Below are positions 5,346 through 47,477 of a stretch of 64,000 nucleotides of DNA, in pieces; the stretch's first letter is position 1, and every line of letters starts with the position of its first letter. A model generated the notes under the pieces. It saw only the letters and a list, made by a program, of their open reading frames with translations. It ran no database searches and was not told the origin of the DNA. Made by a program: the position numbers and the translations under genes. Source of the DNA: an uncultured Christensenella sp. (lineage in GTDB: Bacteria; Bacillota; Clostridia; Christensenellales; UBA1242); assembly GCA_964434145.1 (NCBI GenBank), contig CAYSUG010000002.1, positions 1,063 to 65,062 on the forward strand. Direction: 5' to 3'.

Positions 5346-6530
5346 TTAAGCAACAGCGATGCCAGACAATTTTGCTTGGCCATTTGGCTTGTCACAGATA
5401 AGGTCAGCATATTTTACCAATGTAGCAGTATACACTGGATATCCTTGCTTTTGCTTAATAATTCTGCCATCCTCGCCTTCTAACCATTGCCAATCGCATA
5501 GTTGATGCAATGTGAATTCCTTAGTATTAAGTAGATACATCTCGTCATCTGCAATGAATCTGTCAGATACCACTGGAATACCTGCATAAGATATAGCCTT
5601 GTAGCCACCTGCTAGATCCATGATGTCTATGTTTCTTCTGAATGTGTTAAGGTATGCCTGATATGCTCTCTTCACAGCACTAGAACAAGTTATGAAGTCT
5701 ACAGTACTACCAGCAAACTCTTCCATCTCGTCTATTGCAGTCTGGATAACAGTATCAGAAATCTCTCCTACGCTCTCCTTTGTATAAGGATTTAGCCAAG
5801 GATAATTAGCCTTAGTCAAACCATACAATGTCTCTGCACTAGCATCAAATAATTTGCCAAGACCAGTAATCTCGTTATTAAATGAGCCTTGTACAACCAA
5901 AGCCTGCGTAGCAGTTAACTCTGTAGCAATGCTGCTATCAAATGTGATAGTCTTAGCTACTCTGTCCACATACGCTACACGCTTAGCACCATTGGCACTC
6001 TTCTCGCCAGTAGTTGTGTCCACAAAGTCAATGTACATTCCCTCAATAACATTCTTCACACTGTCTACAGCAACCAACGCAGAACCTGCTGTATGAGATA
6101 CAACTTTAGCTAACACTCCGCTGCCGTCGCCGTATAACATTCTGCCCATATTGAATGTACTAGCCTTGATCAAGCCCTCCATTTCTGCATTCAGTAGATT
6201 AACGAATGCACCGGCATTGTTCTGACTAGCTCTCATAGCCTTGTCAGATATTTCTATTGTTCCAAATAGATTCTTCAGTCCTGTCACGAACTTAACATAC
6301 TTATTCTCTTGTGCTACTGGTAGCATATCTGTCTCGCCACCTGCACCTATTCCGCCATTAATTCCATATGGAGCCAATTTGATAATTTCCTTGCCCCATA
6401 CATCTGCAGTAGACTGCTTAATCTTATTTAGCAGAGGATTAGCATTGATATTCAACTGGTCAGATACTACACCTAGATACACTGACTTCAACGCATCTTC
6501 TGCTGTCTGTAATGTAACCATTATTTTCAC
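5346..6530 (-). CDS. Phage major capsid protein
   Basis: 394 aa in the canonical terminase-portal-scaffold-capsid order. The sequence style (…DKAMRASQNNAGAFVNLLNAEMEGLIKA…GRMLYGDGSG) is typical of HK97-fold capsid proteins. A strong SD is present. Confidence 0.7.
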   Translation of the reverse strand: MKIMVTLQTAEDALKSVYLGVVSDQLNINANPLLNKIKQSTADVWGKEIIKLAPYGINGGIGAGGETDMLPVAQENKYVKFVTGLKNLFGTIEISDKAMRASQNNAGAFVNLLNAEMEGLIKASTFNMGRMLYGDGSGVLAKVVSHTAGSALVAVDSVKNVIEGMYIDFVDTTTGEKSANGAKRVAYVDRVAKTITFDSSIATELTATQALVVQGSFNNEITGLGKLFDASAETLYGLTKANYPWLNPYTKESVGEISDTVIQTAIDEMEEFAGSTVDFITCSSAVKRAYQAYLNTFRRNIDIMDLAGGYKAISYAGIPVVSDRFIADDEMYLLNTKEFTLHQLCDWQWLEGEDGRIIKQKQGYPVYTATLVKYADLICDKPNGQAKLSGIAVA

Positions 6531-19318: not shown

Positions 19319-19356
19319 CAAAAAAAGGTATCTTGCAAACTTGCAAAATACCTTTT
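19319..19356 (-). terminator. Rho-independent terminator of the giant gene
   Basis: Minus-strand hairpin AAAGGTAT…ATACCTTT followed by a run of 7 T, 28 nt after the TAG stop at 19384-19386. Confidence 0.7.
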
Positions 19357-25300: not shown

Positions 25301-28300
25301 GTAGTAGCAACTCCGAACAATCCACCAATATTTGCTGTATTCACATTTGCAATTGTGAATTCATTTAGAGAGATTTTAACTTTCTGAATAGCAGCACCAC
25401 TGCCTACTACACCAGCAATTGCACCAACATACATTTCACCATGTTTATTAGTATTGCCTCTAATTGTGATTTTGATATCCGTTGCATTTATTGCCGTAGT
25501 AGTACCTATAGCTCCAGCTGCTGCATTTCCTGCAATCACGCCATATCTATATTGATTGCCGTCAACATACTCAGTTGCAGTATCAGTTACTACTACACCA
25601 TTCAATGTCATGTTATTGATAGAAGATGATGCATTGCTCATATATCCTATCACACCAGCGACATTCTGTCCACCGTCGACTGTTATAGTATTCAATTTTC
25701 CGCCACTAATAGACACATCACCGCTGTCTCTACCTACAACACCACCAGTATTACCTGACGCTTTGTTGTATAGGTTGATCCTTGTAATATCACAGCCAGA
25801 CATAGTTAATTTGCCTAGACTGTATGCCACAATACCACCCATATTACTTGCATTAGCAGTCAGTGAGATAGATGCAGCAACCTGTGTACCACCAGCTGGG
25901 GTTGCTGTAGCACCACTAATAACATCCACATTATCGAATTTGGTCTCGCCATTGTTATTTACCACACCCACCAGCAAGGATGCAGTATCGACTGTCAATG
26001 TGCTTGTACCTATAGCACCAATATTACCCATGTATTTTACTGTAAAGTTCTCTAGACTATTACCACCATTTAACACACCAAATAATCCATAATTAGATCC
26101 GTCCAATGTTACGATATTGGTTGTGCTAGGTATTGTAATATTATAGTTATTTCCTACCACATTTCCTTTGAATGGGAAGTTGGTAGAGCCAAATGGATTC
26201 AAGCTAGGTACACTTATCTCAAAATCATTTGCAATATACAAGTTGAAGTTATCTGAATTAGAATAATTAGCAGATACATCCTCAATTAATTGATGAGTAT
26301 TGGTATATGTCCCGCCAGTTCTCATACTCTGTAGCTTCTGAGCAGTCAGATATTCTAATTCACTAGTAATCTTGTATGCACCAGACTGGTATGACAATTT
26401 ATCCTCTGGGATTGCAAATAGGATGATATTATCACCACTCCATACTGAGGAATCAGATACATTACCTACATATGCTCCATTGTTCTTAGCATTTGTAGAC
26501 ACTATGCTTGCACCTTCACTAGGTGTATAAGCATTTGCACCACTATCGCTCTCGGCCTCTAGGATATAACCACCTGATATGATTCCTACGATGCCGTTGC
26601 CGTTAGTTATTGTGCCAGTATTCCTAACACCTTGTACTAAGATACTATCTGCAGCATAGCCTACAATACCACCTACATTACTTGCTGTAGTTACATCTAT
26701 TGCAACTCCATTGATAACCAATTTAGTATAGTTATATTTGTATTCACCAGGAATAGTTGTATCTAGATTATATGCACCAACTACACCGCCAACATTGCTG
26801 CCATTTCCTATCTCGATTGCTTTAGCATTCTTCAGCCAGATGTTATATGTTGTATACCATGCCTTATTAGCATCGTCGACTTCTATAACAGCATCTACCA
26901 GACCATATATTCTTACATTGTTAGCATTACCGACCATGCCACCCACACTGTTACCATTGGTCAATATTATTGAACCATTGGTCAATGTCAAGATATAGTC
27001 GTATGCTTGAGTGCTCTGATTATCTGATGCCCTTCTTAGACTAGACTCACCCTTATCATATGTCGTAGTTTCTCCAGACACAACATCTGTTAATGTTGAA
27101 TTATTAATAACAATATTTGATGAGATAACATTTGGAATATAATCTTCAAACACATCATTCAAAGCCTTATCGTACTGGGATGTAATCACTACATTATTAG
27201 CATCACCTACTAGTCCCGCTACATTGGATACATTGCTAGAAGTGCTAGCAATTTTAGTATTCTCAGACACTCTTGATAGGTAGATATTGCCGCTAGATGC
27301 CTTAGCACTACCAATCAATCCACCTACATTAGTAATAGCGTTATTAGCCGAAACACGTGTTCCACCATTATCGTACTCTTTGACTACATCAGCTTTGATT
27401 TGTACAACTATGTCGTTATTGGTTGTTGGATCTGAATCTACATATCCTACACTCATATTGTATAGCAATACATCCTTGGTTGACTCTATGCGACCTATTA
27501 GACCACCTATATTGGATGCAGTGTAGTTATCTGCAGTGCCACCCGTAATCTCATAGTTATATGTTATTTCTGTCTGTGCCGTTATGTTCTTCAATATTGG
27601 TTTATTAGAAGTAGCCAGATACAATCCACCTATTGCACCACCTATATTGCTGCCCGCGTCGGCATCAATTGTACCGTCTGCAGACAAGTTGTATAGATTG
27701 ACATTATTTGTAGAAATATCCATCAATGCTACAGATGATAAAGTTACACCATTGTACTCTGCATAACCAGCTATTCCGCCTATATATCCACCATTTATAT
27801 ATTTATTAATATCAGTAGATACAACCGGATAACTGATATTAATATTGCTAGATATATTGGTCATAGACGTATTGTATGCATAGCCGATCAATCCACCTAC
27901 ATACTTGCTGCCGTCTATGGTCTCTATTACCGTACCTTCGCCAATATTCAAGTTGCTAATATTAGCATTATCTGCCAGACCAATTAGACCAGAGTACATA
28001 TTCAGAATATTCTTCTTCTCCGCCCATTCTCTGTATACAAATTCTTCTCTCTCTGCATTAACAGACAGATAGTACGACATGAAGGATACAACCTTGATAT
28101 TACTGAAACTAGAGATGTCATCTGCTATTCCATTGTCATTAAAGTCAGCAGCCTTAATCGTGCCCTTGAATGGACGATATGTTTGTCCTTTTACTACCCC
28201 AGTCTCATAGTTGGTTGTTATTCCAGTATGATTTACTGTATTGTTATTAACATCTTTCTTGGTTAATACATCATAATCCGCATGACCTATAGCTACCCAT

Positions 28301-31300
28301 ATTTTACCAGAGAAGCTAAGTGAACCATTGATGACAATTGTCTTACCGGCAAAGTCATAACCTACATTAGTCATTCTGGCTATCCATGCCAACTGAGAAG
28401 TTCTCTCTATATAGAAATTATTATTATCAGCATAATATTGTTTTTCTTGCTCTACAATCTCGCCGTCAAATATATCTGTAGTACTAATGCCAGATGTAAC
28501 ACTATCTGTATATGGCAATGTAGCAAAGTCTATCCAATACCCCGCTGAGAACATCAACACTGGATAATCTGCATTACTGCCATCTCTATGCCAGATACTA
28601 CCCCACGCAAAGTTCTTGAAATCTTCTTCTGTATAGAATGTTTCATCTGCTAGATAGTTGTTTTTGCCAGTCGGATATGTTGTTCCGCTTATTGCGCCAA
28701 ACACACTTTGTTCATTAGTATTCAAATCTATTGTGTCTTCGTCGCCGTCACACTCCAAATTATTACTATTCACATATACATACTTAAATACTTGATTATA
28801 ATTAATAGAGCCGGCAGTCGTATATTCTCCTACTAGCGATGTATTGCCGCTAGAAGAATATGATTCTTCAATGATCGCATATCTGCCCTTTGACTCCAAT
28901 TGACCTTGTGATGCATCATAGTTCAGATATCCTATTAGGGCTCCAGCTTTTCCATTTCCATATGTAGTAATATTTACCTCATCCTTACGAGATTCATTAT
29001 CACCATTAGAGTTGTATGCATTGTCTATCAATACAGCCTCATTAGCATAGCCTAAGATTCCACCAGCATAATATCCATATACTTCACCTTGGTTATCTAT
29101 AATAGATAGTTCTGCCAATGCTCCTTCAGCTCTACCCATAATACCGCCAGCGTAGTTCACTGCAGCAGTATTCTTGACACCTGTATAGCTATATACATAT
29201 GCATTGTTTTCTGCCCTAATAATAGATATATTAGAGCCCGTTGAGCCATAGCCGACCATGCCACCAACGTTAGCACCTACTACTTGCAAGGTATTCTGCT
29301 TGCTGTCCGCAGGGTCGCATATCTTCATGATATCGCACTCTACACCTATCTGCTCTATTCGGAATTTTCTTTCAACTCCACCATTTTTAACAATATCGCC
29401 GCTAACGTCATTGATAGTCTGACCTTTGCTATCCTCTATGGCTATCATATTAACACCTGCCGCTGTATTAACAATCTGGTAATAATCATCAGAGTTATCT
29501 GCAGCAGTGCCATTATCGTGCTTCTTCACATAGAATGCTTTCGTTGTAACTGTATTAGCAGCAGTTCCGCCTATCTCGCTCATCTTGTATGCTACGCCAT
29601 CAGAGAAAATAGCATATTGTGATAGATCTGGATTATTATTATAGAACTCATCTGCCTTAAAGCTGACTACATCATAGTCGTTCTTCCTTGTTACTACAAA
29701 GTCGATATTGTATGTAATAGGATCTATTGCATCACCACTAGATACAACTGCACCTATTAGTGATCCGGCAGAGCCACCTACTGGATTACCAGCAGTGATA
29801 GTATTAGTAGCTATAACTAGACCTTTGTTAATAGATACATTGAACATATTGGTATCTGTCGCACCACTAGATGCTGTGACATAACCGAATAGTCCCGCAA
29901 CATCTGAGTTAATAACATTGATATTGGATATAGTATATATTATCTTCATACTACCACTATTCTGATTGTATCCGCCACCATTGAATGTTCCCTTGAACGG
30001 ATGTACTTTAGTTCCTATTGGTGTCCACATTTTGCCAGCTAGATCGATATCATCTCCTATTACTATAGATACTCCATCGAAGTCGTACTGACCAGTATTA
30101 ACCATATACGCTACCCATGCCAGCTCATTTGCAGTCTTGATAGTAATAGTAGTAATCTTGCCTTCTGCTACCAATAATTGTCCAGCTGGGATTATATCCT
30201 CATTAATGCTTGCTAATCCTACAATCTGATTAGCACCACCGGCATCAAGCTCATATTTGTATTCATATTCTGGGTCACCATCACTAACAGTAGGTATGTT
30301 ATACACCCAGACATAATCGCCATACATACTCTTGTTTTGATCATACACATCACTATCTGTATATGGGATATCTCTATTGTATAGAGTTGATGTATCTACA
30401 CCACTATAGTTGTATAGATAATCATATAAGTCTATATCTCTATAATACCACTTGCCTTTACTTACTTTTAGCTCTAACCTTAGCATTGGAGCACCATTAT
30501 TACGCTCTTTAGCATCTTCACCACTTAGACCATCTACTACGAACATAGTCCATACGTTGTCAAAGTCTAGAGTAAATGTATTGTCTGTGCTAACAATGAA
30601 ATTAGATATATCTGTAGCGTATGCAGTAGTAGAACTATACGCTATACTAGAGAACACCTTAGCCTCGCCATTGCTATCTACAAACGCAATGTTTTGCGAC
30701 TCATCGTCAGTTGTAGTACTATTATCTTTTTGTCTTAAATATGTATCATATATACCTTTATCCTCTATGGAGGAAGATTCTGTTATAGTACCGCTACTAT
30801 ATACAATCTTAGACAATGACACATTCTGTATCGTACTAGGCAATGAATCTACACTGATTATACTATTAGATATTAGACCAGTGTTAGTGTACGATATAGT
30901 ACCCGATTCATTCTTGTTGTATACTATATAATTATTGTTTACACCAGTCTCACTAGCAATATATGCGTGTATGACGCCTTCGTTAGTGCCAGCTACAGTG
31001 ATATTATTGCCTTTGTCATATGTCGATACAATGATACCCTCATTTGTCGTAGCTATAGTTATAGGATCTGTAGCAGAATGAACCCCTACAACAATCGAAC
31101 CCTTATCTACGCTATTAAACAGCGTTCCGCTACTACCAATAGTTGCCTTGTTGAAATAGAATATATTTGATTTCGCTTCGATTCCATTTGGTGTAGTACT
31201 AGCTACTATATAGGAAAGCCCTGTAGTATCTGGCTCTGGTGTAGGCTCTGCACCAGATGCTATCGCAGCAGCTGCAGCACTGCTATACACCATAGGTTTT

Positions 31301-34300
31301 TGTCTACTGCCGTCTGCTTGGATTTCGTCTTCCCAAGCAAGTAATGGATAACTATATGCATTGGTTTGTGTCCAGATAAATTCAGTCAGATACAGCGATG
31401 CAAATGTAGGTGTATTACCACTAGCATCCTCTACGCCAAACAACATCTCGTCGCTACCCATAGCCATGCCATAATAGTTACTATAAGGCATCAATTCTGC
31501 ATTGTAGTATGCACCACCAAATGCACTAGTTGTATATCTAGGATAACTCTTTGTCTCAGTCCCGTCCATATATGTACCAAACGTACTTTGACCCAAAATA
31601 CCACCAATAGTATTATTCTCGTCGTATATCTTGATATAGTCATAGTTCGTTATTGCAGGAACATTACTAATGCTATATACTCTGTCTATCACAAACAATG
31701 TCATATCATTAGAATGGTTGTCCAGCTGTCCAATAATGCCGCCAATGAATGATGCGTTAGAATTTACATTATCATTACTATCTATAGTACTTGCATTTTC
31801 TGGGTTGTTATTAGCTAGGTCATAGTCTATGAATACAGCACTATAAGAGTCTGTAATGCCAACCTCAGGAGGTGTCACTGCAGCTGCTGCAACTACGCCA
31901 CTATTAGTAATTTCTCCCACAGATACATAACCAACCAATCCGCCTACATTGTTGCCAACAGTGTTGATTTCATTTTCTTTTTTATCTGTTGTTGCAGCAT
32001 CATCTAGTCTTGTATATATAGCTATTGTCATATTACTAAATGACTCTGTCATAGCAAAGTTATCACCCTTGCCCACGACTCCGCCAAAATATGATTTAGT
32101 AATATTCAAAGTCTCACTTTCGGCCTTGATTGAGCCAGTTGTAGCAATTTGATGCAGATTTACCTCTGTAACCAGTCCAGCAAAACCAGATATATAGCTA
32201 CCTTGTAGCGTGCTACCATTACCACCAGCCAGATTGATATTGGCATCAGCCACAATTGTATTAAGATTTAGTTTTTCACCCTCTACTCCATTAACCTTGC
32301 CGCCAAATCCACCTACATAAATATCACTAGCTGTGCTACCCGCTGCCACATTGACATTGATAGTTGCATTGATGCTGTTGTCTCCACCAATAGTAGTATC
32401 AGCTTCTGTATTAACTTCGTTATCTTCTAATTGTCCTACATAGCCACCTACATACACACCAGAGCTACCATCATTAAGAGTTGTTGTGATCTCTACCTCT
32501 GATGTGCAATTATCTACATTGCCGCCTTTGTTCAAGTATCCGAATACACCGCCGGTGTATAGGTTCTTTGCAGCACCAGTAATATTGGTTGCTATCTTAC
32601 CAGATACGCTAATACCAGATACGCCATATACACCAGTGTCATCCATAGTTGCACCAATTGTTCCAATAGCTCCACCTATGTATGCTATATCTCCACTTTT
32701 AGCTTCTTTGGCCTGATGGAATGTAATATCTGCATTGACAGAGATAATATCTATGATATTCTCTTCCTTAGTCGTTGCATAACCTATTGTACCAGCTGCA
32801 CCACCTATAGCAATATTGCTATTAGAAGAATAATATGTTCCACTTGGTCTTGTCAATACATATTTATTATCACTAACACCTTTGTATTCATATAGTCCGT
32901 TATACACATTAATCGTTGTATTAACAGATGTTGGCTCTGTACCAGGCTCTGCAGCAGCAACATCGTCATTAATCATTCTAATCTCAGACTTGCCGACCAA
33001 ACCACCGACATATATTTTGTGCTCAATTGTATTGCCGTTAACCTCACCAGCAAGGTATACATTAATACCTGGTTGCTTCTCTATAGCGAAAGAGCTGCCG
33101 TTAGCCAGTGTCACTTCGTAATTATAATCACCATCATTATTACTAACCATAACACCGCAATTAGACATAACTACATTCTTGCCATATGCATAGCCAAACA
33201 ATCCACCAACATTTACAGCTTTTTCTCCAGTCTGATCTAGGACTAGCGATGTATTTATTTCTGTATTTTTGATTGTAACATCTTTGATGCTAGTGCCAGT
33301 ATACTCATTCTTGATATATCCACCTACGCCACCTACATATATCTCATCTGTACTCATCTTTGTCACATTGATAGACATATTATCAGTAGCATATTCCACA
33401 CCACCGTTATCTGTATCATTATATACCAGCTGCACATTATTGCCATATCCAAATAGTCCACCTACATATGCAGCATCTGTTACTTGGAATATACCTCTAT
33501 GAGTATCTACGCCACCTTCTTGATATCTTCCCACGACAGACACATCTTGGACAACTACACGCGCATTAGTTTTTTGTCTACCAAACAATATTCCTGCAGC
33601 AGCATTTTCCTTTCTAAGAGTAATATTAACATAATCTACAGCTATTTTGAATCCTCTGAATGCAGCTCCGTCTACATATCCAAATAGTCCAAAAGTAGAA
33701 TCATATGTTCCTTCTGTATTTAATCCATATATGGTATAATTTGCATAATAGTTGCCACCAGATTCATACAACCTATTACTCTTCAATATTCCAGTGAATG
33801 GATTATTTGTTTTGTTATTCAATGGTAACTTAGAATTATTCACTTGTATATCTTGCATTAAGATATATGTTGCATCTGGATATTTCTCTGTATTGTCTAA
33901 TAGGTCTTGGAATTCATACACATATATAACCTTCTTATATGTCATGAATCTACGTGTAGGGAAGACGTACTTTGCCTTGTCCACACGCTCTCCGCCATTG
34001 CCAGCATCGGTGCTACTCATTTCTACACCATACCACACATCGTTACGCCAAGTCTCATATACATTAGGCACTACGTTATTACTCTCAGGCATAGCCTTAT
34101 CACCAGATTGCTTGACAGTGCTATCCTTGTAATATGCAAAATTCATTTTTGCCGTTTCATTAAGGATATATTTTCCTTCAACGAATTCTTTAATAGTCCT
34201 TAGGGATCCATATTTCTGTATACGGCTGAATCTGTATATCTCAGCACCAGCGGTAGCATTAATTCTGACATCTCCAGAATATCCTTGGTATATCTCGTTA

Positions 34301-37300
34301 TTAATATAGCTGACAGTATTGATCACCTCATGAGAGAATGTTGCTATTGTATAAGTCGTAGTAACTACAGACGATTTATACTTTATCTCAAACGCCGTAT
34401 TAGTAATGTTGTAATAATATCTATTTTCCTCAGCAGAACTAGCGTCTGTTGGATACTCATCTATTGTGCCAAATATCTGTCTCAATATCTTTATTATCTC
34501 ATCAGTAGAATATATATCGCTGTCTTGAAGCCTATTTGTGATTGTTCCACTATTGAAGACAATATTGCCACCAATATTCTTATTACTCTCTGTCTTAGTA
34601 GCTAGATAATATGTACCCGCTGCAATATACTTGTTACCTTTTAAGCCAGACAGATAGTTACTCTTAGCATTACCCACCTCAGATATAAATTCTGTCTCAC
34701 TATCCTTGCCACTTAGGTCATTGTACTTATATGCTTGCATCAAGTATATATTTTCCTCAACAACTCTCTCTTCTACCGCCCCAGAGCTAATCCAGCCGTC
34801 CGAATTGCTAACAGCGAATCCTATAAAAGAGCCGATGTATGCTCTAGGAGCCACAGCCCCACCATAATTCGCTCTATTAGCATTCTTGTGTGCTTGCTTC
34901 CATAAGTTCATAGAGTTAAGGCTAGATATATCTAGCGTGTCGCCCATATCACTTGCTACACTCTGTACCTCGCCAGTATTGGCATTAGCCTCATAGAATA
35001 CATCTATATACTGCATCTGGTTATAAATATGATATATCTGATTAGCATTGGCCTGATCTTTGTTATATGCATTCTCTAACATCTTCTCTTTATTGCCAGC
35101 AGCATCATATTCTATATCTACTATCTTGGTCTGAATACCTATAGTTCCACCATACGCTCTGTATGCGAATACACTAGCAGTAGTATATACGTCATCCAAG
35201 CTTGCACCTATAGATATGCCTATTATACCACCAGCATACTTCGAGTTAATATTAGCCACATCTACCCTGTTGTATGCATTATTAATTACAGCACCATGAG
35301 ACAATCCCACCAGTCCGCCTATGTAGTGTGCGTTTCCACCATAATAGTCTGTTACCTCACTAACACTAGTCGTACCACCAGTAAAATAGTTGTAGTAGTT
35401 GTTTGCTGTAGTGCTAGCCTTCGATACATTGCTGTATAGAACACTGTCTAACGCTGATTGGTTAGCGTGCTGAACATATGACTTATCTATAGTTCCTAAC
35501 ATATGTCCGACCATTCCTCCAGCTATCGCCACACTATCCAACTGCATTCCACTAGTCACTATAACATCGCTATTAGTTATAGTAACATTGCAACCAGCAA
35601 AGCCAAATAGTCCTCCTACAACCTCGCCAGTAATAACATTAGCACCTACGAATTTCGCTCCAGTCACTGCAGCTACTGGCTCTAAATCGTCATCGCCTAT
35701 ATCGCCTCCTACAGCATCTACATTGATAATACCAGCGATACTACCAGCATAGGCTATCTTGCTATAATTATCACTGCCAGGAATGTATAGATTGAATTGA
35801 TGTGCAGTACTAGGATTTTCCTCGCTGTCACTACTTATATTATCCTTGGTTAATAAAGTAAATTTCTCACCAACTATTCCGTACACCTCTGTACCTATAG
35901 TCGTGTTCACCCTCGATGCATTAGAATTGGTTGCATCAAATAGGTTCGTTCCTATGCCACTGACAGAATGTAGATAGTTGGCAGTAACATTAATATTGCT
36001 AGTCACGTTGGCAATAATTGTGTCTCCGCCTATAAATCCAGCCAATCCTCCTACCACATTAGCACCAGAGATTACAGAAGAATTGCTAGCTCTATTAATA
36101 GTTACATTGTATATTCTTGCATAATCAATACTTCCAGCCAGTCCGCCAACCCTTTGTATTGCATTAGCTCTGATATACTCTATATTTAGGGTCAAATTCC
36201 TAATTGTTGCATAGTATATTTCGCCATCCTCATCATGTTTACCTAATGATTGAAATAGTCCAATACTTTCTATAGCGTTGCCAGAATTATCTGTTGCTGC
36301 AGATAATTTAATATTGGACATACTCATACCATTGCCGTCCATGTCGCCATAGAATGTAACATCATATGTCTTGACAGCTTTATCTAATTCTCCAAATGTT
36401 ATATCTCTAGTCAATCTTATGGACTTGTCTAACTGTGTCAAATTAGTATAATTTTCCTTATCAGTCAACTGCTTGCCATAGATATTGAAGTCATCTTCAC
36501 TGTCTACTAGATATGGGTTCAATACGCTGTTACCATATATAATATCTACTCCTCCTCCATTGTATAGAATATTGGAATAACTATATGCCGACTCTGCATC
36601 ATCAGCTACTTGGTTGACAATGTTAATCTGTTCTATCATTAGAGATGTCATTGTTCCAATCTGGCTACTCATAGCTGCCCAGTCTGCTGTATTCTTTAGA
36701 TAACTATTAACTTTTGATTTGATAGCGTCTTGAATAGCACCAACCTCTGTCGCTGCTGCAATAGTAGCATATTCATCTTCGGAGAATGTTGGCTTGAATT
36801 CAGCATTCTTGAAGTCTGCACCAGCATCCCTTAGCTTCTGCAACTTGCCATACAATACATTCTCATGCCCATTGATACTCTCTTTGTTAGCAAAGTTATC
36901 ATACGCCGTACTCAAATATACATATGCATATATCGTTTTTATCTGATTGGTTGTATAATTGTCAGTTATGTTCGTTCCAGCACTCTGAATGAAGTCATTA
37001 CTGTATGTAACTATATCACCTGCCATTGCTATAGCCATTTCGTCACGCAACGTTTCTAATATATCGTCAATACTATCATCCTTTGCCAATGGGTCGATGA
37101 AGTTGCCATATCTTAAGCTCATAGTTCTAAGATTAGCCGCGACCAATTGTGGAGTGCCTACATTGTATACACCTTCCTTGAAATACTTCGCAACAGTCTG
37201 TCCCTCTGTGCTAGTTGTGTCAGTATATTGCGTAGTTGGAATCCACCATATAGCGCCAGTCACCTTCTCACTATTCATTGACTTGTCTTCATTGAATGTG

Positions 37301-40300
37301 AATGTGTTGAATGTAGCATAGTCGCCAAAATCATACACTCCCTTCGCCAGTCCGTCTACGATAGTAGTAGCGTAGCTGTCTGTATAACTGGTCTTGATGT
37401 ATCTATATATGGTATTTCCATCCGAGTCTACACCACTAGGACTCTTGGTGTACATATCTTTCTCTGTCTGAGTCGTTAGAGCATCATAGCCATGCTGATC
37501 CAAGATAATGTTATTACTAGATATGATAGTAGAATTAGTCTCTTCTAGAGTAATATAGTCCTCCATGCTGACACTCAAGTAATAGATATTGCTCAGTGTT
37601 CCCGCATTGACTGATACACCATTGATATTCCTTGCTGCAAATGGAGAGTGCTGTATATCCCCAGCAATAACTGAAGACAATGAGTATGTCGAATCTATTA
37701 CACCGCTAGTTTGATTATAATACACGAATCCAGATGTCGATGCACCTACTACTACTATGTTAGAATAACTGTTGTTAATATTTCCATTGTTATTGTACAC
37801 GAATCCAGCAGATTGCTTGTTAGAATATATAGCATTACCGTAATTCCTTAGCTTGAATATGGCATTAGGCTTGTCAGCATATCCATAGTAATATCCAATG
37901 TAGTTGACTAGCTCTTCATCACCAATTCCGTTATTCTCTTGGATAGACTGGATAGTTACTGCAGTAGCAGTATCAGCCACTACATAATCAATTAACTCTC
38001 TCTCATAGTTGGTATTAGCACCCTCTACGTAAGAGAATGCAATTGTGCCAGTATTATTAACTACGAATCCAGCAGTTCCACTCAATGCAGCTTCATTACC
38101 CTTGTAATTAATAACATTGCCATTCTTGAAATATGACGAGCTAATCTTGCCAGAATTGTCGCATACAAATCCACCCACATAGAATGGTGCATTGATAGTA
38201 ATCCCCTCTACTGCACTATTGGTGATATGTCCGTTGTTTACTGCAACTAGACCACCCACCTTGATCTCTGTCGCACTAGTGTTGTTTAATGTAGACTGCA
38301 CACGAATCTGAGTTAGTGTTCTATCGTCGTAATTAGGATAGTCTGTGATATATTGTTCTACTCTGTAGTAATAATATTTCTGCAATCTGATAGCAAAGTC
38401 TTCCCTACTCAACTCGTCTTCTGCAAGCAATCTACTGTCTCTCTCGTATCTATAAGTGTCTGCGTTATTAATAACTATAGCATTGGTAATAATTCCGTTA
38501 TTCACACCAGCTACTACACCAAAATTAAATTCGGTAGCATTTTGGATATCAACTGTTATATCAGAATTAACACTACTTTCTACAGTATCTACATCCATAT
38601 TCTGAGTAGTCTGCAGCGGGTTAGCCGGCAATTCTATAATAATATTTTTCAGTATTGTCTCAGCATCGACTGTGCCAAATAGTCCAGCCGTAGTCGTCGC
38701 CGAGTCTAGGGCAGCAAAGCTATTGATTCTGATAACATAGCCATTGCCGTCTAGGCTAGTAATGGCAGTATTGATAGGCGTCCAATTCTCTACCTCTATG
38801 TCTTCCATTAAGATATATGACACACCCTCAACCATGTCTTCTAACTGGTCTGCTGTGTATATAGGAGTAGGATTTTCCTCATTAGACAGCCTCTGCATAT
38901 TGAACGAGAACTCTGTAGAATATGTATATCTAAATGCGGAACTATCACCCATATAATTACCGTTGTCATCCTGCTCAGCTGCGACAGAATACACATTGAC
39001 ACCACTGACAGACTTGCCGCCTGCAGACTCTCCGTGAACATCTGTAGCAGAATATTCTATAACCGCTTGCGCCAGAATTGTGTCGGATGTATCCAGAATG
39101 TTATTTCTGAACTTCAGCACGCCAAAATTCTTAGTTATATAATTAGCTCCAGACTCTGGCATATATGTCACACTATATACAGAATCTGTTATTACAAAGC
39201 TATAGTACGACTTCACAGATAGGTTAGAATATTGCCCGTTGGACTCTCTTACAAACCATGTCTTAGTCGAATGAGTAGCAGTCTCTCCAGTCTCACCCAA
39301 TCCCGCAGAAGTAATTCTGGCAGATAACAACTCTATTTGAGATTGTATGAACTCTATGTCATTGGCAGTAACATTGTTCCTATAATAATTCTTTCCGTCA
39401 TAATATGTAGCGTTTACATTAACCTTCAATTCATATGCCTGATTGAACATTCCATTGAATGTACCATTGGCAACACCCACAACCCCAATACTGTCTACGA
39501 CATACAGCGCTAGCTGCATCTTAATAACACTAGTAGCCCTATATACTTTGTTATTAATCATCTTCTTTACAGTAATAGATAGAGTTACTGTGCTGCCCAC
39601 CAAATCTTCGTCATACACTATAGGCAGACTCAATCTATGCATACCAGATGACGATGTCTTAAGCAAAACTTTACTAATCAACTGATCCATAATACCAGTG
39701 TTAGTAAATTTATCGCTACCATTTAAATACACCAATCTATTCAATACCGCATGGGTAGCACTATTAGTGTTACCAAGCTGCACCTCTATACTATCCCACA
39801 CATCATTAGTCTCTATATCAATAGCAACATCCGTTCCTATAGCAATAGGTGAATTACTGCTGCCATTAATAGATAGCGATACAGTAGGAGGAATGATAGG
39901 ATATAACACGAAACTATCTGTCCTCTCATCTAATAGCACGCCATCACTGTAGTATTTAATAGTAATTAGGTACGTAGATGTCTCATTTACTAAAGTGCCT
40001 ATATATGTCTTGACATAATATATTCCAGCAAAATCATATGTCTTGTCTCCTGCAGACTCATATACATTGGTAACATTATCAAGAGTTATTTTGCCGGGTT
40101 CTTTTACAGCACCAGAATAACTAGAATAGAATGCCCTAGATACATATTTATCCGCCAGTCCCTCGTCACTATTCAGTATCGTCTCTTCCACCAACTGTTC
40201 AAACTCTACATATACACCATTGACAGACGAGCTAGTAATCTCTACCTTGTCTACATTAGAATATCCAGGGAATATACCTACTTGTAACATTCCACTATAA

Positions 40301-43300
40301 CCTACTACAATCGTGTTACTTGGTAGATCTTGATTTACTTCATATCCTTGAGTAGGAGTACCGCCTATAACATCGTATGTCTTCATCGTAACGCTGTTAA
40401 AATGCCTTACCTCTGTAGACTCTAATACCTGAGGAATCATAGTATAGTTCATCTCTAGATATCCGATGCTCTCTACGGCTACCTCTTTGTCCTCTATCAT
40501 GTTGGACAAGAATGTTATCGTATAATTTTCTTCACTAACACAATCATACCTGTCATCCAATAACACTTCTATCTGGAAGTTATATGTCACATATCCTTCG
40601 TTAGACCTATCAATAGAAATTAACCTTAATTGATATTTGTCGAACACTGCATAGAAATTGTCTATATCCTTAGACACCTCGTATAGATATATATCATTGA
40701 ATAACACATTCCTAGAACCTTTTAGATAGAATGCAAAGCCGCTGCCTCCTAATTTGCTATCAATCTTTGTTAACCTATTACCACATCCCAAAACCTCCAT
40801 TTGCTTGTTGCCACTGGAGATATAGAAATATAGACTACTATCTTCATCATCTGTAGTTAGGGTTACACTGAATATACTTGCTTCTTTTGGAGTACCCTCT
40901 GCAGTTGTATCCAGAGATGTCAATCCGCTAGTCCCCTTGACAATGTCCAGCTCTATGCTATCACCCAAGCCTTTTTTGAAATCTGCAGCGTCCACCTTCT
41001 TGAATTTTCCTTCGGCTACACGGCTATAGAATTTCTGCAATACAACTTTGTCAGTCATAGCACCGCTAGACGTAGAGTATATATATGGCACCGCGAATAA
41101 CTTAATTCCTTCCACCTCTAATAATGCGGAGATATAGCAGGAGTCTGCATTGTCAATATCTACATATACTAGATACTCATTACTTCCGTCTGAATTCTTC
41201 ATATATTGATATGCTAATTCATTGATATTGAAATATTTCGAGTAATTGGTAGCTATATAGTCAGTTACGTCACCAGTCACAACATGATATATTCCACCAG
41301 CCGCATTCAGCATAAATATCCTCATACCAACCTTGGCACTAGCATTCTCTATCAGCTGTATATTAGGATATAGTTTTGTTAGAATCGAGTTAGTATTAGC
41401 GTCATTGAAGACTGAATTGATGCTATAAGAAAGCTTAATAGAGGCATTCTTGACAATCGTCATCTTCTCACTACTACCTTGCGCCAATGATTTGATATCA
41501 AAATCACTAACTACTCTATTTATTTGGATATATAGATTTACTACTAATTCTTTGTTATATATATTGGTCAGCGTTATGTGCGCCAATCCGTCACTAATAG
41601 CCTCTAATTGTAAGCCATTAACACCTTGGGACAATATAACATATCCCATACTGCCAGTATCCAAGGTTGCCATCATACTACTCTCTGCTATGAACTTTGG
41701 CAACATATTGATTGTTACCAATTCATCCATAGTATGAGTGTTTAGAGACTTGAACGTCTCCTTTGCGACATCAGAGAAAATCTCCTCTGTATAGCTAATC
41801 ACTCCATCACCATCTAGGTCGTTGCTGCTTAGTTCATACATAGATACAGCAATGTAATAATCTGTCGTACCTATCTCTACATCATAGATATTATCACCCA
41901 TTCCAGGCTTGGTCAGCTCAACGCCAGATGGCGGAATATCTATAGTTAGACGAATAGGATTATTACTATTAAACCCTCTCTCATCTACAACAAAAATGCA
42001 AGATTCTGAAGTATTACCATCCTTGTATTGATAGTATGCATATACCTCTGTTGTATATTGTTTTATATTATTAAAACCTTTATCATCCATATCCGCAACA
42101 TCTATTGTATAGATACCAGAAATAGGAACTTTAGAGTAACTATGTGTATCACCACATACATTGTAATACACACTAGATGTATTATCGCTATTAGCCAACA
42201 TTGTATTGTCTATCACAACACCGCTTGGCACATTAATATTCAACTTAGCAAAGCCATATTCTCCAGTATTAGAATTCTGTTCATATTTACCAACCATTAC
42301 ACCAATATTACCGCTAGATCCACTTGTATTACTCTCATAATACACAATATCACCATAATATTCGCCTGTATTATCTACAAATGTTAGCTCACCATTCATC
42401 TCAGCATTGATGTAAGAATATGCAGAGTTATACTGTCCCGCACCATGATTTACTCCAATAACACCGCCTAGGTTGTACTGACCAATGATAGCACTATTCA
42501 TGAAAGAATACGCCTCGCCTTGGTCTAAGAACTGAACCTTGTTATATGCTACCTCTCCATTAGTATCATTATATCCAGCAATACCACCTATCGATTGCTC
42601 ACCCACCAGTGTAGGTAGAGACTTTGTGTTTTCAATTGTGCCATAGTTTACACCAACAACACCACCAATGTTTGTATTGCCGAATATAATCGCCTTAGCC
42701 ACGACATCAGACATGGTCACACCATCGCCTAATATTCCAACAACGCCACCAATATTCTGACCATAGAAATTGCCAACTTTGTTATATTGCTCTGGGTTGA
42801 TCACAGCAACAACATCTGCATTAGCATACTTGGTCGTAACACTATTGTCTCTATCACTATACACTATCTTACTGGTAGCACCTTGTTCTTCTTCTACACC
42901 ACCAAACAATCCACCGATTGCTGATATTCCAGTCGTGTTGCCATGTATAACCACATACACTCTAGAATCGGTATTAATAACACCACCAGATACATTGACA
43001 TTCTTCAGCGTCTTAACATATCCAGCGACGCCACCTATGTACATATCTACAGAATTGGTCGCATCGACCTTGATTCCATAAGACGCTGCCTTTGTCGCAC
43101 TGTCACTATATCTTCCAGCTATCTGAACCAACTTAGAACTATCTATCTGGGATACATTGTTGCCATCATTCACTACAATTCCACTAATCTGACAACTATC
43201 TGCCATTCCCACCAAGGCACCTACGTATATGCCATTTCCTATACTGTTGCTATTGACATCTACATCTATATTAACATTATTTATTGCAATGTCACTGAAT

Positions 43301-46300
43301 TTTGCATTCTTGGCAAAGGCAAATATACCCACTCCACACGACTGACCGTCTTCTAATGACACACTAGACTTATGCACAAAATTATTAATACTGTGTACAA
43401 CTACACCACCGTCCACCAACAGCTTTGCACCACTAATAGCACCAGTAAATGGATTGCTCTCACTTCCTATAGGAACAAATCCGCCATCCAGATTGATATC
43501 CGAGGTCAACACATAGTTAGAACCTAGATTATTATTAATGTCCTGCAATTGCTTCTGATTGCGTACACTGTATGGATTGCCTACACCGTCCTCTACTATT
43601 ATGTTGAACTTTGTCGACACCTTGTACACATTAGCAGCAATCTGACTACTCTTTGCACTCAATAATACTACGTAATTAGGACTAGCATAACCCACTGATG
43701 ATGGACTTCTTAACTCTAACAACTTAATCGTCACGCTCTGATTTACTTCGTCAACCTCTACAGCAAAGCTATTAGAGTCTTGGCTTATCACAATTGACTT
43801 GTTAACATACTCGTCCAGATAATTTTCTGGCAAATCCAGCCTGTAATTAAATGTCTTTCTTGTATTCTCAGTCTCCTTCATCACATAATTGCCACTAACA
43901 TTGTCTACTTCATAATCCACACCTACAACAAAATCTCTAAGATCGAAGGCAACTTTGCTATTATTAAGAATTGGCACAATGCCAGATATTCTCATATTTC
44001 TCTGAACTGTAAGGAAAGAACTCTTGGTCAAAGTAACTTTATACTCACTGTTATTGATATGGTTATATGTTGCATTAACTACAGCATCCACTTGGATATA
44101 TATCCTTGCCTCTGTGTTATCCACTAACAGATTAGACGACTTTGTATAATCCACAAATATGGCTATATTCTGGCCATCCCCTTCCTTGAAGAATATATAT
44201 AGTTTATAATCCCAAGCATTATCACCCAGAGTATAATATGTATCCTGATACTCCTTGGCATTAGGCAACAATCCCACTATTGTAGCATTTTGTATCTTGC
44301 CAACAGTCTTGCTGCCATTCATTTCTGATACCACAACTAGACCACTATCATCAACACTTGGCTGTAAGGCCCACGTAAAATTGCTGTTAGAACCCACACT
44401 AATTATCCAATTAACCCCTGATGTCAAAGGTTTTTTATTGGTAATATCAGTCAGCGAATACGTTGCCACACCTTTTTCCTGGAACTCGGATTTTGTTCCA
44501 AATGTATTAAGAGTGTCCTTAGTAAATATCATATTCTTGGTAGAATCCAGACTAATCTGTCTAGTTGGAGAAGGAGTTTTGATATTGATAACAAACAACA
44601 CTTCTCCATGCTCCACATCTGTCCAAGACGCAATATCCCTGCTATGATTATCTCTTTTTGCTACAAAGCCTTTGACCGTAATCTCCAGCCTTACTTCACC
44701 TACAGCCTTAATCTCTAGTACATAATCGCTATCAAATTTTGCCAATGCCTCATTGGAGGTTTTGACACCAACATTCATATCTTTTGGCAATTCTATAAAT
44801 GAATATGTTTTAGTAACGGTATTATTAATATCATAATTCAGATTAAATGTCTGAGTATCACCCACCAACGCTTCCAAATTCACAATTGTTGTATTAATAC
44901 CATTATTATCAATCTTGGTTGCATCATAAGGCTCAATTTTGGTCGCATTTGCCGTACCCTCTTTTGCATCGCTACCCAGCGTCAAATATGGTTTGCCCGG
45001 CAATTCATAATACACCAATAGATAGAAGCTACATTTCTCTCCATTAGGAGCAACCAATTCTACCCTACATTCTCCCAAGTTTCCATCATAGAACAATATA
45101 TTCAGCATCGGTGCACAAGTATCAGCTACTACACTACCATTCACTTCCTCATATTTCTTATCAGACACGAACGCATATGACACATTTGAGCCTTTTTCAT
45201 TATGCTTTATTACACTATTTCTAGACACATCGGTTATATTAACCTGGATATCCAGTTTGTATAACTCAACAGGATTTACACTTACAGCATTATAATCATA
45301 TACTATATCACTATCAGCGCCATCACTTAAGAAGTTCTTATAATCACTAATAGCTCCGCCATTCCATGCCGCAAGACTATCTAGAGGGATATTTAGATAA
45401 TTCAACCCTGCACCAACACCTGCAACATACAGATTATCGTCAGAATATGGCACATACATCTTGTTACCATCACTTGTATTCCAGCCAATATTAGCCGAGA
45501 CATAATTAACCTTGATATCTTGAGAGGTCAGTACATATCCACTACTACCCACACTACATTCATATCTAAGATATATATCCTCTAGATATTCCGTCTTATA
45601 CGATTCATGAGTCGTATCTAACGACACAACTACAACAGACATAGACTTAATATTATCTAATCCACCATTAGCAGTAGCAGACGAGCCAGACACCTTGAAT
45701 TTCAAAAATTTTGCCTCACTTTCAGCCCCATTCTGCTTAATTATCGCACGTATTGAATATTCACTATTCAACAATTCATTATCTACACTACTATACTCTG
45801 TAGATACTATTTTTGCTAGCAACTGTATTCCACCAATATATCCACTGTATTGCTTGTATATATTGACACTATTATTAATCAACCTTTCTTCCGAATTTAC
45901 CTTCTCATACACTTCTATCTCGTCTGGATATTCACACACCTCTAACACGATTCTCACCCTTACTCCATCGAAAAACTGGGTATATTCGTCGTAGAATATT
46001 CTGAAATCCAAATCATAGCTTCTACTAATAGACGTCGTATGAGTAATATTATATGCAGCTCCGTCTTCGGTTAGATCACACCTAATAGAAGATATTGTAT
46101 CTACCTCTGACTGCACATTATACTGCCCGCTGCCTTTTATAGCCGACATATACTTTGTTGTACCATTTTCTTGTACAGCAAACATTCCACCAACATTGCT
46201 ATTAGTTAATCCATAACCAAATTCCACATTGGCACTTCTGTATCTAACGTCCACTTTATTTGATGTGTTATTTGCTAGCAGCAGCTTGAATGTAGCAACA

Positions 46301-47348: not shown

Positions 47349-47378
47349 ATTATATAAAATCATTCATATTGCCGTCAA
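47349..47378 (-). promoter_or_regulatory. Sigma-A-type promoter of the giant gene
   Basis: Minus strand reads TTGACG - 18 nt - TATAAT, about 60 nt upstream of the ATG at 47286. Confidence 0.55.
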
Positions 47379-47400: not shown

Positions 47401-47446
47401 AAAGAAAAAATTCAATTATGCTAGAAAAAAATTTCTAGCATAATTG
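47401..47446 (-). terminator. Rho-independent terminator of the sleB-ypeB operon
   Basis: 15-bp arms CAATTATGCTAGAAA / TTTCTAGCATAATTG followed on the minus strand by AATTTTTTCTTT, 30 nt after the ypeB stop. Confidence 0.75.
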
Positions 47447-47477
47447 AAAATTTAAAAAAATCGACATCTCCTCCACA

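What the first reader, a model, noticed from the sequence alone, without database searches (positions are those of the whole stretch)
26150..43600. The giant ORF is a head-to-tail concatenation of at least seven complete 'cap + GLUG-helix' units
The protein restarts seven times with the same ~50-aa cap signature. The signature runs x-I/Y-x-I/V-x-T/S-x-x-E/Q-L…Y-x-L-x-x-D-I-x-L/V-x(3-8)-W/F-x-P-I-G/N-x(3-6)-P-F-x-G, and each cap is followed by hundreds of residues of GLUG turns. Cap 1 is PYSVRNQKQLQDINNNLGSNYVLTSDINLDGGFVPIGSESNPFTG (DNA ~43,590). Cap 2 is PIYTADQLEDMVEGVSYILMEDIEVENWTPINT (~38,880). Cap 3 is NPYLVDSEDDFNIYGKQL…RLTRDITFGE (~36,525). Cap 4 is VIYVYEFQDLLDNTEKYPDATYILMQDIQVNN…NNPFTG (~33,940). 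Cap 5 is TITIKTANELAWVAYMVNTGQYDFDGVSIVIGDDIDLAGKMWTPIGTKVHPFKG (~30,150; verified by translating 30,101-30,150). Cap 6 is FYIERTSQLAWIARMTNVGYDFAGKTIVINGSLSFSGKIWVAIG (~28,420; verified). Cap 7 is YKITSELEYLTAQKLQ…NDFEISVPSLNPFGSTNFPFKG (~26,385). The units differ in length and sequence, so this is old accretion of whole units rather than simple repeat expansion. A few EF-hand/dockerin-like loops (NDLDGDGVISYTEE, DFNDNGIADDIS, SGDGLINENDD) sit between units.
Basis: seen in the sequence. Interest (0 to 1): 0.6.

Follow-up and report, generated by a model that had tools for sequence, protein, structure and literature searches.

The report
Giant seven-module beta-helix surface lipoprotein
A 9,300-residue lipid-anchored surface protein of an uncultured small-genome gut Clostridia bacterium carries seven diverged copies of a known building block, the IgA1-protease-type (GLUG) beta-helix, strung together with Ig-like spacers; this is a solid description of a common kind of giant adhesin-like protein, not a new kind of system.

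Summary
The ORF (window 19384-47286, minus strand, 9,300 aa) contains all seven quoted cap strings within about 15 nt of the stated positions. A cap profile built only from other proteins matches it with its cap part at exactly those seven places (E 8e-6 to 6e-30).

- The caps are the N-terminal start of a known, structurally solved domain. This is the GLUG-type beta-helix of PDB 3N6Z and of the S. pneumoniae IgA1 protease N-terminal domain.
- Chains of 3-14 such modules are common in metagenomic proteins. The cap profile hit 17,728 cluster representatives.
- The units do not sit strictly head to tail. A ~1,200-aa N-terminal region and a ~1,000-aa Ig-like array separate them.
- Only units 4 and 5 show even a marginal match to the usual closing motif.
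- Unit 7 is ~2,200 aa long and carries recent internal tandem duplications.
- Only one of the three "EF-hand" loops is conserved.

Four congeneric genomes hold collinear 9-10.5-kaa orthologues with caps at matching positions, which supports old accretion of units. The most likely function is a non-enzymatic adhesive fibre; this is inferred, not shown. It is a new member of a known kind, of low to moderate interest.

The parts
19384..47286 (-). Giant gene, 9,300 codons, no internal stop
   Evidence: Collinear orthologues of 9,045-10,541 aa occur in four congeneric genomes.
47209..47286 (-). Lipoprotein-type signal peptide with lipobox (…GLISAC, Cys26)
   Evidence: Read from the sequence. The only TM-like stretch is aa 11-31. 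The same …S/A-C-S-C… lipobox is present in all four orthologues and in the paralogue on contig C10.
43606..47208 (-). N-terminal non-helix region, aa 27-1227. No caps and no GLUG rungs; probably an Ig-like stalk (inferred).
   Evidence: no cap or rung hits; no Pfam hit. The fold was not tested.
42127..43605 (-). Unit 1: cap (aa 1228-1345) plus GLUG helix to about aa 1720
   Evidence: External cap HMM E 5e-23 with rung hits to aa 1668; leave-one-out E 9e-4.
38887..41919 (-). Spacer, aa 1790-2800: a string of beta-sandwich (Ig-like) domains. It holds the one conserved EF-hand-like loop (aa 1822-1833, DLDGDGVISYTE).
   Evidence: AF2 model pLDDT 53.4. Foldseek gave 240 PDB matches at E<=1e-3, led by titin Ig arrays, cadherins, contactin and the Sap S-layer. 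The loop is kept in 4 of 5 orthologues.
37132..38889 (-). Unit 2: cap (aa 2800) plus degenerate GLUG helix to about aa 3385
   Evidence: External cap HMM E 2e-18; leave-one-out E 6e-5; a W…TPQLV closing-like motif at aa 3347.
34687..36588 (-). Unit 3: weak cap (aa 3567-3700) plus GLUG helix to about aa 4200
   Evidence: External cap HMM E 1e-16, but not recovered in the leave-one-out test. It is among the best-conserved stretches among orthologues, up to 69% identity.
31324..33966 (-). Unit 4: cap (aa 4453) plus GLUG helix plus closing motif (aa 5305-5316, W…YPLL)
   Evidence: Cap E 2e-14; Pfam Peptidase_M26_N E 0.003 over aa 4438-4586, below cutoff; closing-motif HMM E 0.0045.
30481..31323 (-). 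Cap-less beta-rich segment, aa 5322-5602, ending in a second closing-like motif (FTLDFDNVWTM…)
   Evidence: Closing-motif HMM E 0.02; no cap hit. Its nature is unresolved.
28549..30180 (-). Unit 5: best cap (aa 5708-5822), helix with a ~130-aa insert (aa ~5868-6000), and closing motif (aa 6228-6244, W…YPVL)
   Evidence: Cap E 6e-30. The AF2 model gives strand-helix-strand then beta rungs, with a low-confidence insert. Closing motif E 0.03.
26407..28443 (-). Unit 6: cap split by a ~37-aa insert (aa 6284-6337 and the PFKG at ~6375), plus GLUG helix to about aa 6960
   Evidence: Cap E 9e-8 and rungs E 1e-8. AF2 gives helices at model residues 580-588 and 597-608, then beta rungs with pLDDT 70-93.
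19717..26400 (-). Unit 7: weakest cap (aa 6971-7090) plus a very long GLUG helix (~2,200 aa) with recent tandem duplications at aa ~7200-8200
   Evidence: Cap E 8e-6; leave-one-out E 6e-6; self-BLAST above 100 bits within aa 7400-8200. Orthologue G009 has 51% gaps at aa 7951-8100.
19387..19695 (-). Cys/His-rich C-terminal tail (aa 9198-9300)
   Evidence: 9 of the protein's 49 Cys lie in aa 9204-9282. A Cys-rich C-terminal end is visible in all four orthologues; G009's closely resembles this one. It was not studied further here.
47349..47378 (-). Sigma-70-like promoter candidate (TTGACG-18-TATAAT, 11/12) upstream of the giant gene
   Evidence: This is a consensus match only.
47411..47448 (-). 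Terminator-like hairpin between ypeB and the giant gene
   Evidence: 1 found against 0.1 expected.
19323..19356 (-). Terminator-like hairpin just after the giant gene's stop codon
   Evidence: 1 found against 0.1 expected.

Best explanation
The gene encodes a lipid-anchored cell-surface fibre of a spore-forming, small-genome (1.28 Mb) uncultured Clostridia bacterium.

Shown:
- An N-terminal lipobox signal.
- Seven independently capped right-handed beta-helix modules of the GLUG / IgA1-protease-NTD type. Each opens with a strand-helix-strand cap (I-x-T-x-x-E-L … Y-x-L-x-x-D-I-D-L … W-x-P-I-G … P-F-x-G-x-F-D-G-N-G-x-x-I) followed by stacked GG(L/I)(V/A)G rungs.
- At least one ~1,000-aa Ig-like spacer between modules.
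- No protease motif.
- The same module order in four orthologues.

Inferred: the Ig-like parts act as a stalk that carries the helices away from the membrane and through the wall. The diverged helices act as ligand-binding (adhesive) surfaces, much as the homologous helix of IgA1 protease binds the Fab of IgA1. The caps seal the open N-terminal edge of each helix so that each module folds on its own.

The protein grew by old accretion or duplication of whole modules (units 1 and 4 are sisters; units 5 and 6 have similar caps). It is still growing by tandem duplication of rungs inside unit 7.
For: - Architecture: seven caps by an outside-only profile, with rung blocks after each.
- Homology to solved beta-helices: an outside cap profile hits 3N6Z (E 1e-20, residues 41-185) and IgA1P 6XJA/6XJB/7JGJ/7UVL/7UVK (E ~8e-9, chain residues 117-236). 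The giant's caps match that profile with hhalign probability 99.6% and E 9e-24. PMC7695701 places the IgA1P beta-helix at residues 781-1070 of a 665-1963 construct, so the match begins at the first residues of the helix. The paper also shows the N-terminal domain that contains it is soluble on its own (construct 665-1010) and that this domain binds the IgA1 Fab.
- AF2 model of units 5+6: the caps are strand-helix-strand at pLDDT ~70-84, with a ~100-aa non-beta junction between the units.
- The Foldseek top list holds mainly beta-helix proteins, including IgA1P.
- The spacer models as an Ig-like array.
- Lipobox.
- No HExxH and no enzyme family hit.
- Orthologues are collinear with caps at matching positions.
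- Small one-module relatives are secreted proteins with the cap directly after the signal peptide.
- The gene has its own promoter-like and terminator-like sites.
Against:
- Both AF2 models are of low to moderate confidence (pLDDT 61.6 and 53.4).
- The Foldseek match of units 5+6 is not significant (best E 0.08).
- Pfam Glug and Peptidase_M26_N hits are below their curated cutoffs.
- The giant's own caps and units find no PDB chain directly. The link runs through an intermediate profile.
- No binding function of a GLUG helix outside IgA1 protease has been tested, and no ligand can be named.
- The fold of aa 1-1227 was not tested.
Confidence: 0.6

Rival explanations
1. The beta-helix modules are enzymes, for example polysaccharide lyases or hydrolases as in pectate-lyase-fold proteins and phage tailspikes. 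The giant would then be a multi-enzyme surface machine for glycan breakdown.
For: Most of the other structural neighbours in the (non-significant) Foldseek list are tailspikes, lyases, epimerases and esterases. Right-handed beta-helices are a common CAZyme scaffold (general knowledge).
Against: No enzyme family was hit in Pfam or NCBIfam. The sequence-level relatives are 3N6Z and the IgA1P N-terminal-domain helix. In PMC7695701 the catalytic residues of IgA1P come from the other domains, and this domain binds the substrate's Fab and gates the active site. No catalytic motif is conserved across the seven units; there are no invariant columns apart from one Leu.
Confidence: 0.12
2. It is a structural envelope or spore-surface component (S-layer-like sheet, exosporium or coat fibre) rather than an adhesin. 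The reason would be its position next to the germination and sporulation genes sleB, ypeB and spoIIR.
For: The neighbours are YpeB, a SleB-like hydrolase, SpoIIR and an Amidase_3. This placement (sleB-ypeB-giant-…-amidase) is kept in all four orthologue loci. The B. anthracis Sap S-layer is among the fold matches of the spacer.
Against: A terminator-like hairpin and a sigma-70-type promoter separate it from ypeB. A lipobox fits mother-cell or vegetative membrane anchoring, and no SLH or cell-wall-binding domain is found. More distant congeners keep ypeB without any giant next to it, so the adjacency is not functionally required.
Confidence: 0.12
3. It is a contact-dependent delivery or competition protein. 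The long fibre would present the Cys/His-rich C-terminal domain as an effector.
For: The tail (aa 9198-9300) differs sharply from the rest and is Cys/His-rich. Some giant beta-helix proteins do carry C-terminal toxins (general knowledge).
Against: No toxin, immunity or secretion-partner family was hit. The C-terminal tail is only 24-31% identical in three of the four orthologues without the cassette-like pattern of polymorphic toxins having been shown.
Confidence: 0.05
4. The 'caps' are ordinary internal turns of one continuous solenoid, and the seven-fold pattern is a by-product of low-complexity G/N/S/T-rich sequence.
For: The written consensus is loose. Cap 3 fails the leave-one-out test. 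The junction in the AF2 model is low confidence.
Against: The outside-only cap profile gives E 8e-6 to 6e-30 at exactly seven sites and nowhere else in ~5,500 aa of rungs. The caps contain a predicted alpha-helix. The same motif starts the helix in solved structures and in one-module proteins. Non-helix spacers lie between units.
Confidence: 0.03

Closest known systems
PDB 3N6Z, 'putative immunoglobulin A1 protease', a 363-aa one-module protein (structural-genomics entry)
   Same: It has the same cap plus GLUG-rung module. The cap profile matches residues 41-185 at E 1e-20, with further rung matches to residue ~300. It works as the stand-alone version of one unit of the giant.
   Different: It has one module, not seven, and no Ig-like spacers. 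Whether it has a lipobox or closing motif was not examined here. Its function is unknown. The giant's own caps do not hit it directly, only through the wider profile.
N-terminal beta-helix domain of Gram-positive M26 IgA1 metalloproteases (S. pneumoniae IgA1P/ZmpA; PDB 6XJA, 6XJB, 7JGJ, 7UVL, 7UVK; Pfam Peptidase_M26_N PF05342)
   Same: It has the same domain type. The cap profile matches the first ~120 residues of the helix at E ~8e-9. Cap 4 gives a weak Peptidase_M26_N hit. The N-terminal domain that holds the helix is soluble on its own and makes a protein-protein contact with the IgA1 Fab (PMC7695701).
   Different: The giant has no HExxH, no Peptidase_M26_C, no G5 domain and no LPXTG. It is not a protease. 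It has seven helices instead of one, and they are longer (about 500-2,200 aa against ~290).
Multi-module cap+GLUG surface proteins in metagenomic protein collections (unnamed class; e.g. P0013 with 14 caps, P0089 with 3, P0143 with 4)
   Same: These are repeated cap-helix-closing-motif units on secreted or lipid-anchored proteins. The cap profile finds 17,728 cluster representatives. Among the best 147, 28 have 7 or more caps.
   Different: Typical units are 330-500 aa, abut one another and end in a clear GWDF..VW....YP.L motif. Here the spacings are 578-1570 aa, Ig-like arrays are interposed, the closing motif is mostly missing, and the total length (9,300 aa) exceeds the longest of the top 150 representatives (7,824 aa).
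Giant1-5 extracellular proteins of Apilactobacillus kunkeei (PMC12863079)
   Same: These are several 3,000-8,000-aa surface proteins that fill ~6% of a 1.5-Mb genome. They have a beta-solenoid binding head on a long rod and are proposed to be adhesins. Here six open frames above 2,500 aa fill about 8% of a 1.28-Mb genome.
   Different: Those solenoids resemble the serine-rich-repeat-protein binding region, there is one per protein, and the rods are alpha-helical. No sequence relation was tested or is expected.

Membership tests
GLUG-type capped beta-helix module (as in PDB 3N6Z / IgA1P N-terminal domain) | N-terminal cap motif (…E-L…Y-x-L-x-x-D-I-D-L…W-x-P-I-G…P-F-x-G-x-F-D-G-x-G…GLFG) recognised by a profile of family members | tested here: met
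   An outside-only HMM hits seven sites at E 8e-6 to 6e-30. hhalign of A2 against A5 gives probability 99.6% and E 9e-24. A5 hits 3N6Z at E 1e-20 and IgA1P at 8e-9.
GLUG-type capped beta-helix module (as in PDB 3N6Z / IgA1P N-terminal domain) | Pfam GLUG motif (PF07581) above the gathering score | tested here: not met
   The best segment scores are 18.5, 15.6 and 9.8 bits against a cutoff of 20.5. Nothing at E<=0.01 on the 4,700-aa halves. The rungs are visibly GLUG-like (77 regex matches) but diverged.
GLUG-type capped beta-helix module (as in PDB 3N6Z / IgA1P N-terminal domain) | Right-handed parallel beta-helix fold of each unit | tested here: inconclusive
   The AF2 model of units 5+6 is beta-rich with pLDDT 61.6. 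Foldseek's best E is 0.08, though most of the top hits are beta-helices.
GLUG-type capped beta-helix module (as in PDB 3N6Z / IgA1P N-terminal domain) | C-terminal closing motif (GWDF..VW....YP.L) at the end of each unit, as in canonical multi-unit proteins | tested here: inconclusive
   There are only marginal hits, at aa 5223-5321 (0.0045), 5537-5581 (0.02) and 6199-6246 (0.03). None follows units 1, 3, 6 or 7.
M26 IgA1-specific metalloprotease (ZmpA/B/C) | HExxH zinc site and the Peptidase_M26_C catalytic region | tested here: not met
   There is no HExxH anywhere in the 9,300 aa and no Peptidase_M26_C hit.
M26 IgA1-specific metalloprotease (ZmpA/B/C) | Peptidase_M26_N above the curated cutoff | tested here: not met
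   17.4 bits against a cutoff of 27.7, and only over cap 4.
Bacterial lipoprotein | Signal peptide ending in a lipobox [LVI][ASTVI][GAS]C | tested here: met
   The N-terminus reads MEKFFKITRRILCAIMVAFAGLISAC. Equivalent lipoboxes are present in four orthologues and in the C10 paralogue. This is pattern only; no predictor or experiment was used.
Dockerin / EF-hand calcium-binding modules between units | Paired D-x-D-x-D-G-x-x-x-x-x-E loops recognised by Pfam and conserved in orthologues | tested here: not met
   There is no Dockerin or EF-hand Pfam hit. Only the single loop at aa 1822 is kept (4 of 5). The loop at 6381 is part of cap 6, and the loop at 8660 is not conserved.

The most novel reading that the evidence does not exclude
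This giant belongs to a set with its distant 9,109-aa paralogue and the other very long open frames, six above 2,500 aa in all, about 8% of a 1.28-Mb genome. Together they would form the partner- or host-contact apparatus of a genome-reduced, dependent Clostridia lineage. Each of the seven old, diverged helices would bind a different ligand, so that one molecule is a multivalent attachment organelle roughly 0.1-0.2 micrometre long.
Probability: 0.15. Interest if true: 0.55.

Novelty: new member of a known kind. Interest (0 to 1): 0.27.

Why it matters
This gives a clean domain map for an unannotated 28-kb gene that takes up 2.2% of a very small genome. It also ties the gene to a solved structural module, so the seven units can be expressed singly and tested for binding. 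More broadly, capped GLUG helices are among the commonest building blocks of giant surface proteins in gut Clostridia. Even so, they have no curated family for the cap and no tested function outside IgA1 protease. A cap model would improve annotation of tens of thousands of proteins. The finding does not reveal a new mechanism.

Tried and rejected
- Pfam and NCBIfam scans of nine overlapping segments gave nothing above the cutoffs.
- Direct PDB sequence searches found no relevant chain. I tried the giant's caps (A1), unit 5, the six-orthologue profile of units 5+6 (A3), and a canonical three-unit outsider, P0089. Only a wider outside profile reached 3N6Z and IgA1P.
- The search for related loci in genome contigs with units 5+6 found nothing. 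Orthologues came from the genome search instead.
- A closing-motif HMM gave only marginal hits.
- A self-BLAST dot plot shows almost no similarity between units. The units are too diverged for BLAST.
- Foldseek of the two-unit model was not significant.
- Literature searches for 'GLUG' returned nothing relevant.
- The ideas that the EF-hand-like loops are dockerins and that the protein is an M26 protease are rejected.

Full report
**The object.** The finding lies inside one open frame, window 19384..47286 on the minus strand, 9,300 codons long. It has an AGGAAG ribosome-binding site before the ATG. A sigma-70-like promoter candidate and a terminator-like hairpin separate it from the upstream ypeB gene, and a terminator-like hairpin follows the stop codon. 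The product starts with a lipoprotein-type signal (…GLISAC). It has no other TM-like stretch and no HExxH, and it is rich in G/N/S/T/V/I.

**Checking the observation.** All seven cap strings and the three 'EF-hand' strings are present. The caps start at aa 1238, 2808, 3590, 4453, 5713, 6291 and 6971, within about 15 nt of the stated DNA positions. In leave-one-out tests an HMM of six caps recovered the seventh as the best non-training hit for six of the seven caps (E 1e-3 to 7e-10). Cap 3 failed.

A stronger and independent test used the cap alignment (A2) against 1.84 billion cluster representatives. It found 17,728 proteins at E<=1e-3. From the best 150, plus eleven hits of a word-based search, I took 637 non-redundant caps and built an HMM that contains no residue of the giant. 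That HMM matches the giant with its cap part at exactly seven places, with E 5e-23, 2e-18, 1e-16, 2e-14, 6e-30, 9e-8 and 8e-6. All other matches use only the rung part of the profile. So there are seven caps, no more, and cap 3 is real although weak. GLUG-like rungs follow each cap in blocks.

**What the cap is.** In small relatives the cap sits directly after the signal peptide (P0003, P0006, P0007, P0009, P0012). Two-cap and many-cap proteins are common. Among the best 147 representatives, 79 have their first cap within 150 aa of the N-terminus. Of the same 147, 28 have seven or more caps and one has 14. The median cap spacing is 384 aa.

A profile of 34 outside caps (A5) hits two groups of solved structures:
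- PDB 3N6Z (363 aa), at residues 41-185, E 1e-20.
- The S. pneumoniae IgA1 protease structures 6XJA, 6XJB, 7JGJ, 7UVL and 7UVK, at E ~8e-9, chain residues 117-236 of the 665-1963 construct. That corresponds to residue ~781.

PMC7695701 places the start of the IgA1P beta-helix (781-1070) at exactly that residue. The paper also shows that the N-terminal domain containing it is soluble on its own and that this domain binds the IgA1 Fab. The giant's caps match the outside profile with hhalign probability 99.6% and E 9e-24. The link is indirect. The giant's own caps and units hit no PDB chain, and the Pfam Glug and Peptidase_M26_N hits are below cutoff.

**Structure predictions.**
- *Units 5+6 (aa 5700-6899, six-orthologue alignment A3).* The model has mean pLDDT 61.6 and pTM 0.52. 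Each cap is strand, alpha-helix, strand (pLDDT about 70-84) followed by beta rungs. The ~100 residues between the units (aa ~6173-6275, containing W…YPVL) are non-beta and of low confidence. Unit 5 has a ~130-aa low-confidence insert. Foldseek against the PDB gave nothing significant (best E 0.08). The top list nevertheless holds mostly right-handed beta-helices, including 6XJA and 6XJB.
- *The stretch between units 1 and 2 (aa 1790-2800, alignment A4).* The model is poor (pLDDT 53.4), yet it gave 240 PDB matches at E<=1e-3. These are led by titin Ig arrays, protocadherins, contactin and the B. anthracis Sap S-layer. It is therefore a string of Ig-like beta-sandwiches, not a helix.

- The units are not head to tail. 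Aa 1-1227 and aa 1790-2800 are non-helix. Cap spacings are 578-1570 aa, and unit 7 runs for ~2,200 aa.
- The canonical closing motif of outside units (GWDF..VW....YP.L) is found only marginally. It appears after units 4 and 5 and once more at aa 5537-5581, at the end of a cap-less segment.
- Unit 7 contains near-identical tandem copies, and orthologue G009 has a large gap there. Rung-level repeat expansion is therefore ongoing.
- Of the three EF-hand-like loops, only aa 1822-1833 is kept in 4 of 5 orthologues. The one at 6381 is the F-D-G-N-G-x-x-I element of cap 6. The one at 8660 lies inside unit 7 and is not conserved.

**Evolution.** The genome has 1.28 Mb in 64 contigs and is 95.5% complete. 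The neighbours of the gene are SpoIIR, a SleB-like hydrolase, YpeB and an Amidase_3, so the organism is a spore-forming Clostridia. A relative is 'MAG: Clostridiales bacterium isolate SIG400'.

Four congeneric genomes hold full collinear orthologues of 9,045-10,541 aa, and a fifth (G002) holds a copy cut short by its contig. The four full copies are 13-71% identical in 150-aa windows, carry the same lipobox and have caps at matching positions. All four lie between sleB-ypeB and the amidase gene, with 0-3 HExxH genes after the giant. Four more distant congeners have ordinary genes after ypeB.

A tree was built from about 105 cap columns, with 28 giant-family caps and 109 outside caps. Each cap position is monophyletic across orthologues (support 0.97-1.0, weak for cap 1). 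Caps 1 and 4 are sisters (0.95), and the giant's caps as a set are not monophyletic. Cap 6 could not be placed. This supports old accretion of whole modules, with the caveat that the alignment is short.

The same genome holds a distant 9,109-aa paralogue with the same lipobox and two caps. It also holds further open frames of 5,823, 4,149, 2,804 and 2,556 aa.

**Function.** Nothing enzymatic is detectable. The only member of the module family with a known role binds a protein partner (PMC7695701). A lipid anchor, an Ig-like stalk and multiple diverged helices fit a long adhesive fibre. That is an inference. The rivals are enzyme modules, an envelope or spore structure, and effector delivery; they are listed with what would refute them.

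**Earlier notes of this scan** describe similar giants in other Clostridia and name 3N6Z and IgA1P as the closest known structures. I treated these as leads and confirmed that link myself.

**Verdict.** This is a new member of a known and common kind of protein.

Noticed in passing
G000 contig C10, open frame from base 87 (+), 9,109 aa; also C9:3158 (+) 5,823 aa, C4:11393 (-) 4,149 aa, C1:22833 (-) 2,804 aa, C45 (-) 2,556 aa: The 1.28-Mb genome holds six open frames above 2,500 aa, about 101 kb or ~8% of the genome. The 9,109-aa one is a distant paralogue of the window's giant. It has the same lipobox context (LLGCNCSCSDGYDN), two caps and collinear 26-30% matches to units 2 and 3.
   Followed up: partly
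window 16235-50104 and loci L009-L016, L018-L021: The order sleB-ypeB-giant-(HExxH genes)-amidase is kept in all four orthologue loci. The number of HExxH paralogues after the giant varies (3, 1, 0, 1, against 2 here). Four more distant congeners have neither the giant nor HExxH genes after ypeB.
   Followed up: partly
window 30481-31323 (aa 5322-5602): A cap-less, beta-rich segment with N-x-G-type turns ends in a second closing-like motif (FTLDFDNVWTM…APMLRLE). It may be a decayed eighth module.
   Followed up: no
window about 29286-29684 (aa ~5868-6000): A ~130-aa insert lies inside helix 5. It is low confidence in the AF2 model and is the least conserved part of unit 5 among orthologues. 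It gave a weak sequence hit to PDB 5MU5, an 'uncharacterized protein' (E 0.03).
   Followed up: no
window 41787-41822 (aa 1822-1833): A canonical EF-hand-type loop, DLDGDGVISYTE, sits at the start of the Ig-like spacer. It is kept in 4 of 5 orthologues and is a possible single calcium site.
   Followed up: partly
window about 22700-25700 (aa ~7200-8200): Near-identical tandem copies lie inside unit 7. Orthologue G009 shows 51% gaps at aa 7951-8100, so copy number appears to differ between species.
   Followed up: partly
window 36589-37131 (aa ~3386-3566): The stretch between units 2 and 3 reads as alpha-helical, alanine- and charge-rich sequence, unlike the Ig-like spacer. It was not modelled.
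   Followed up: no
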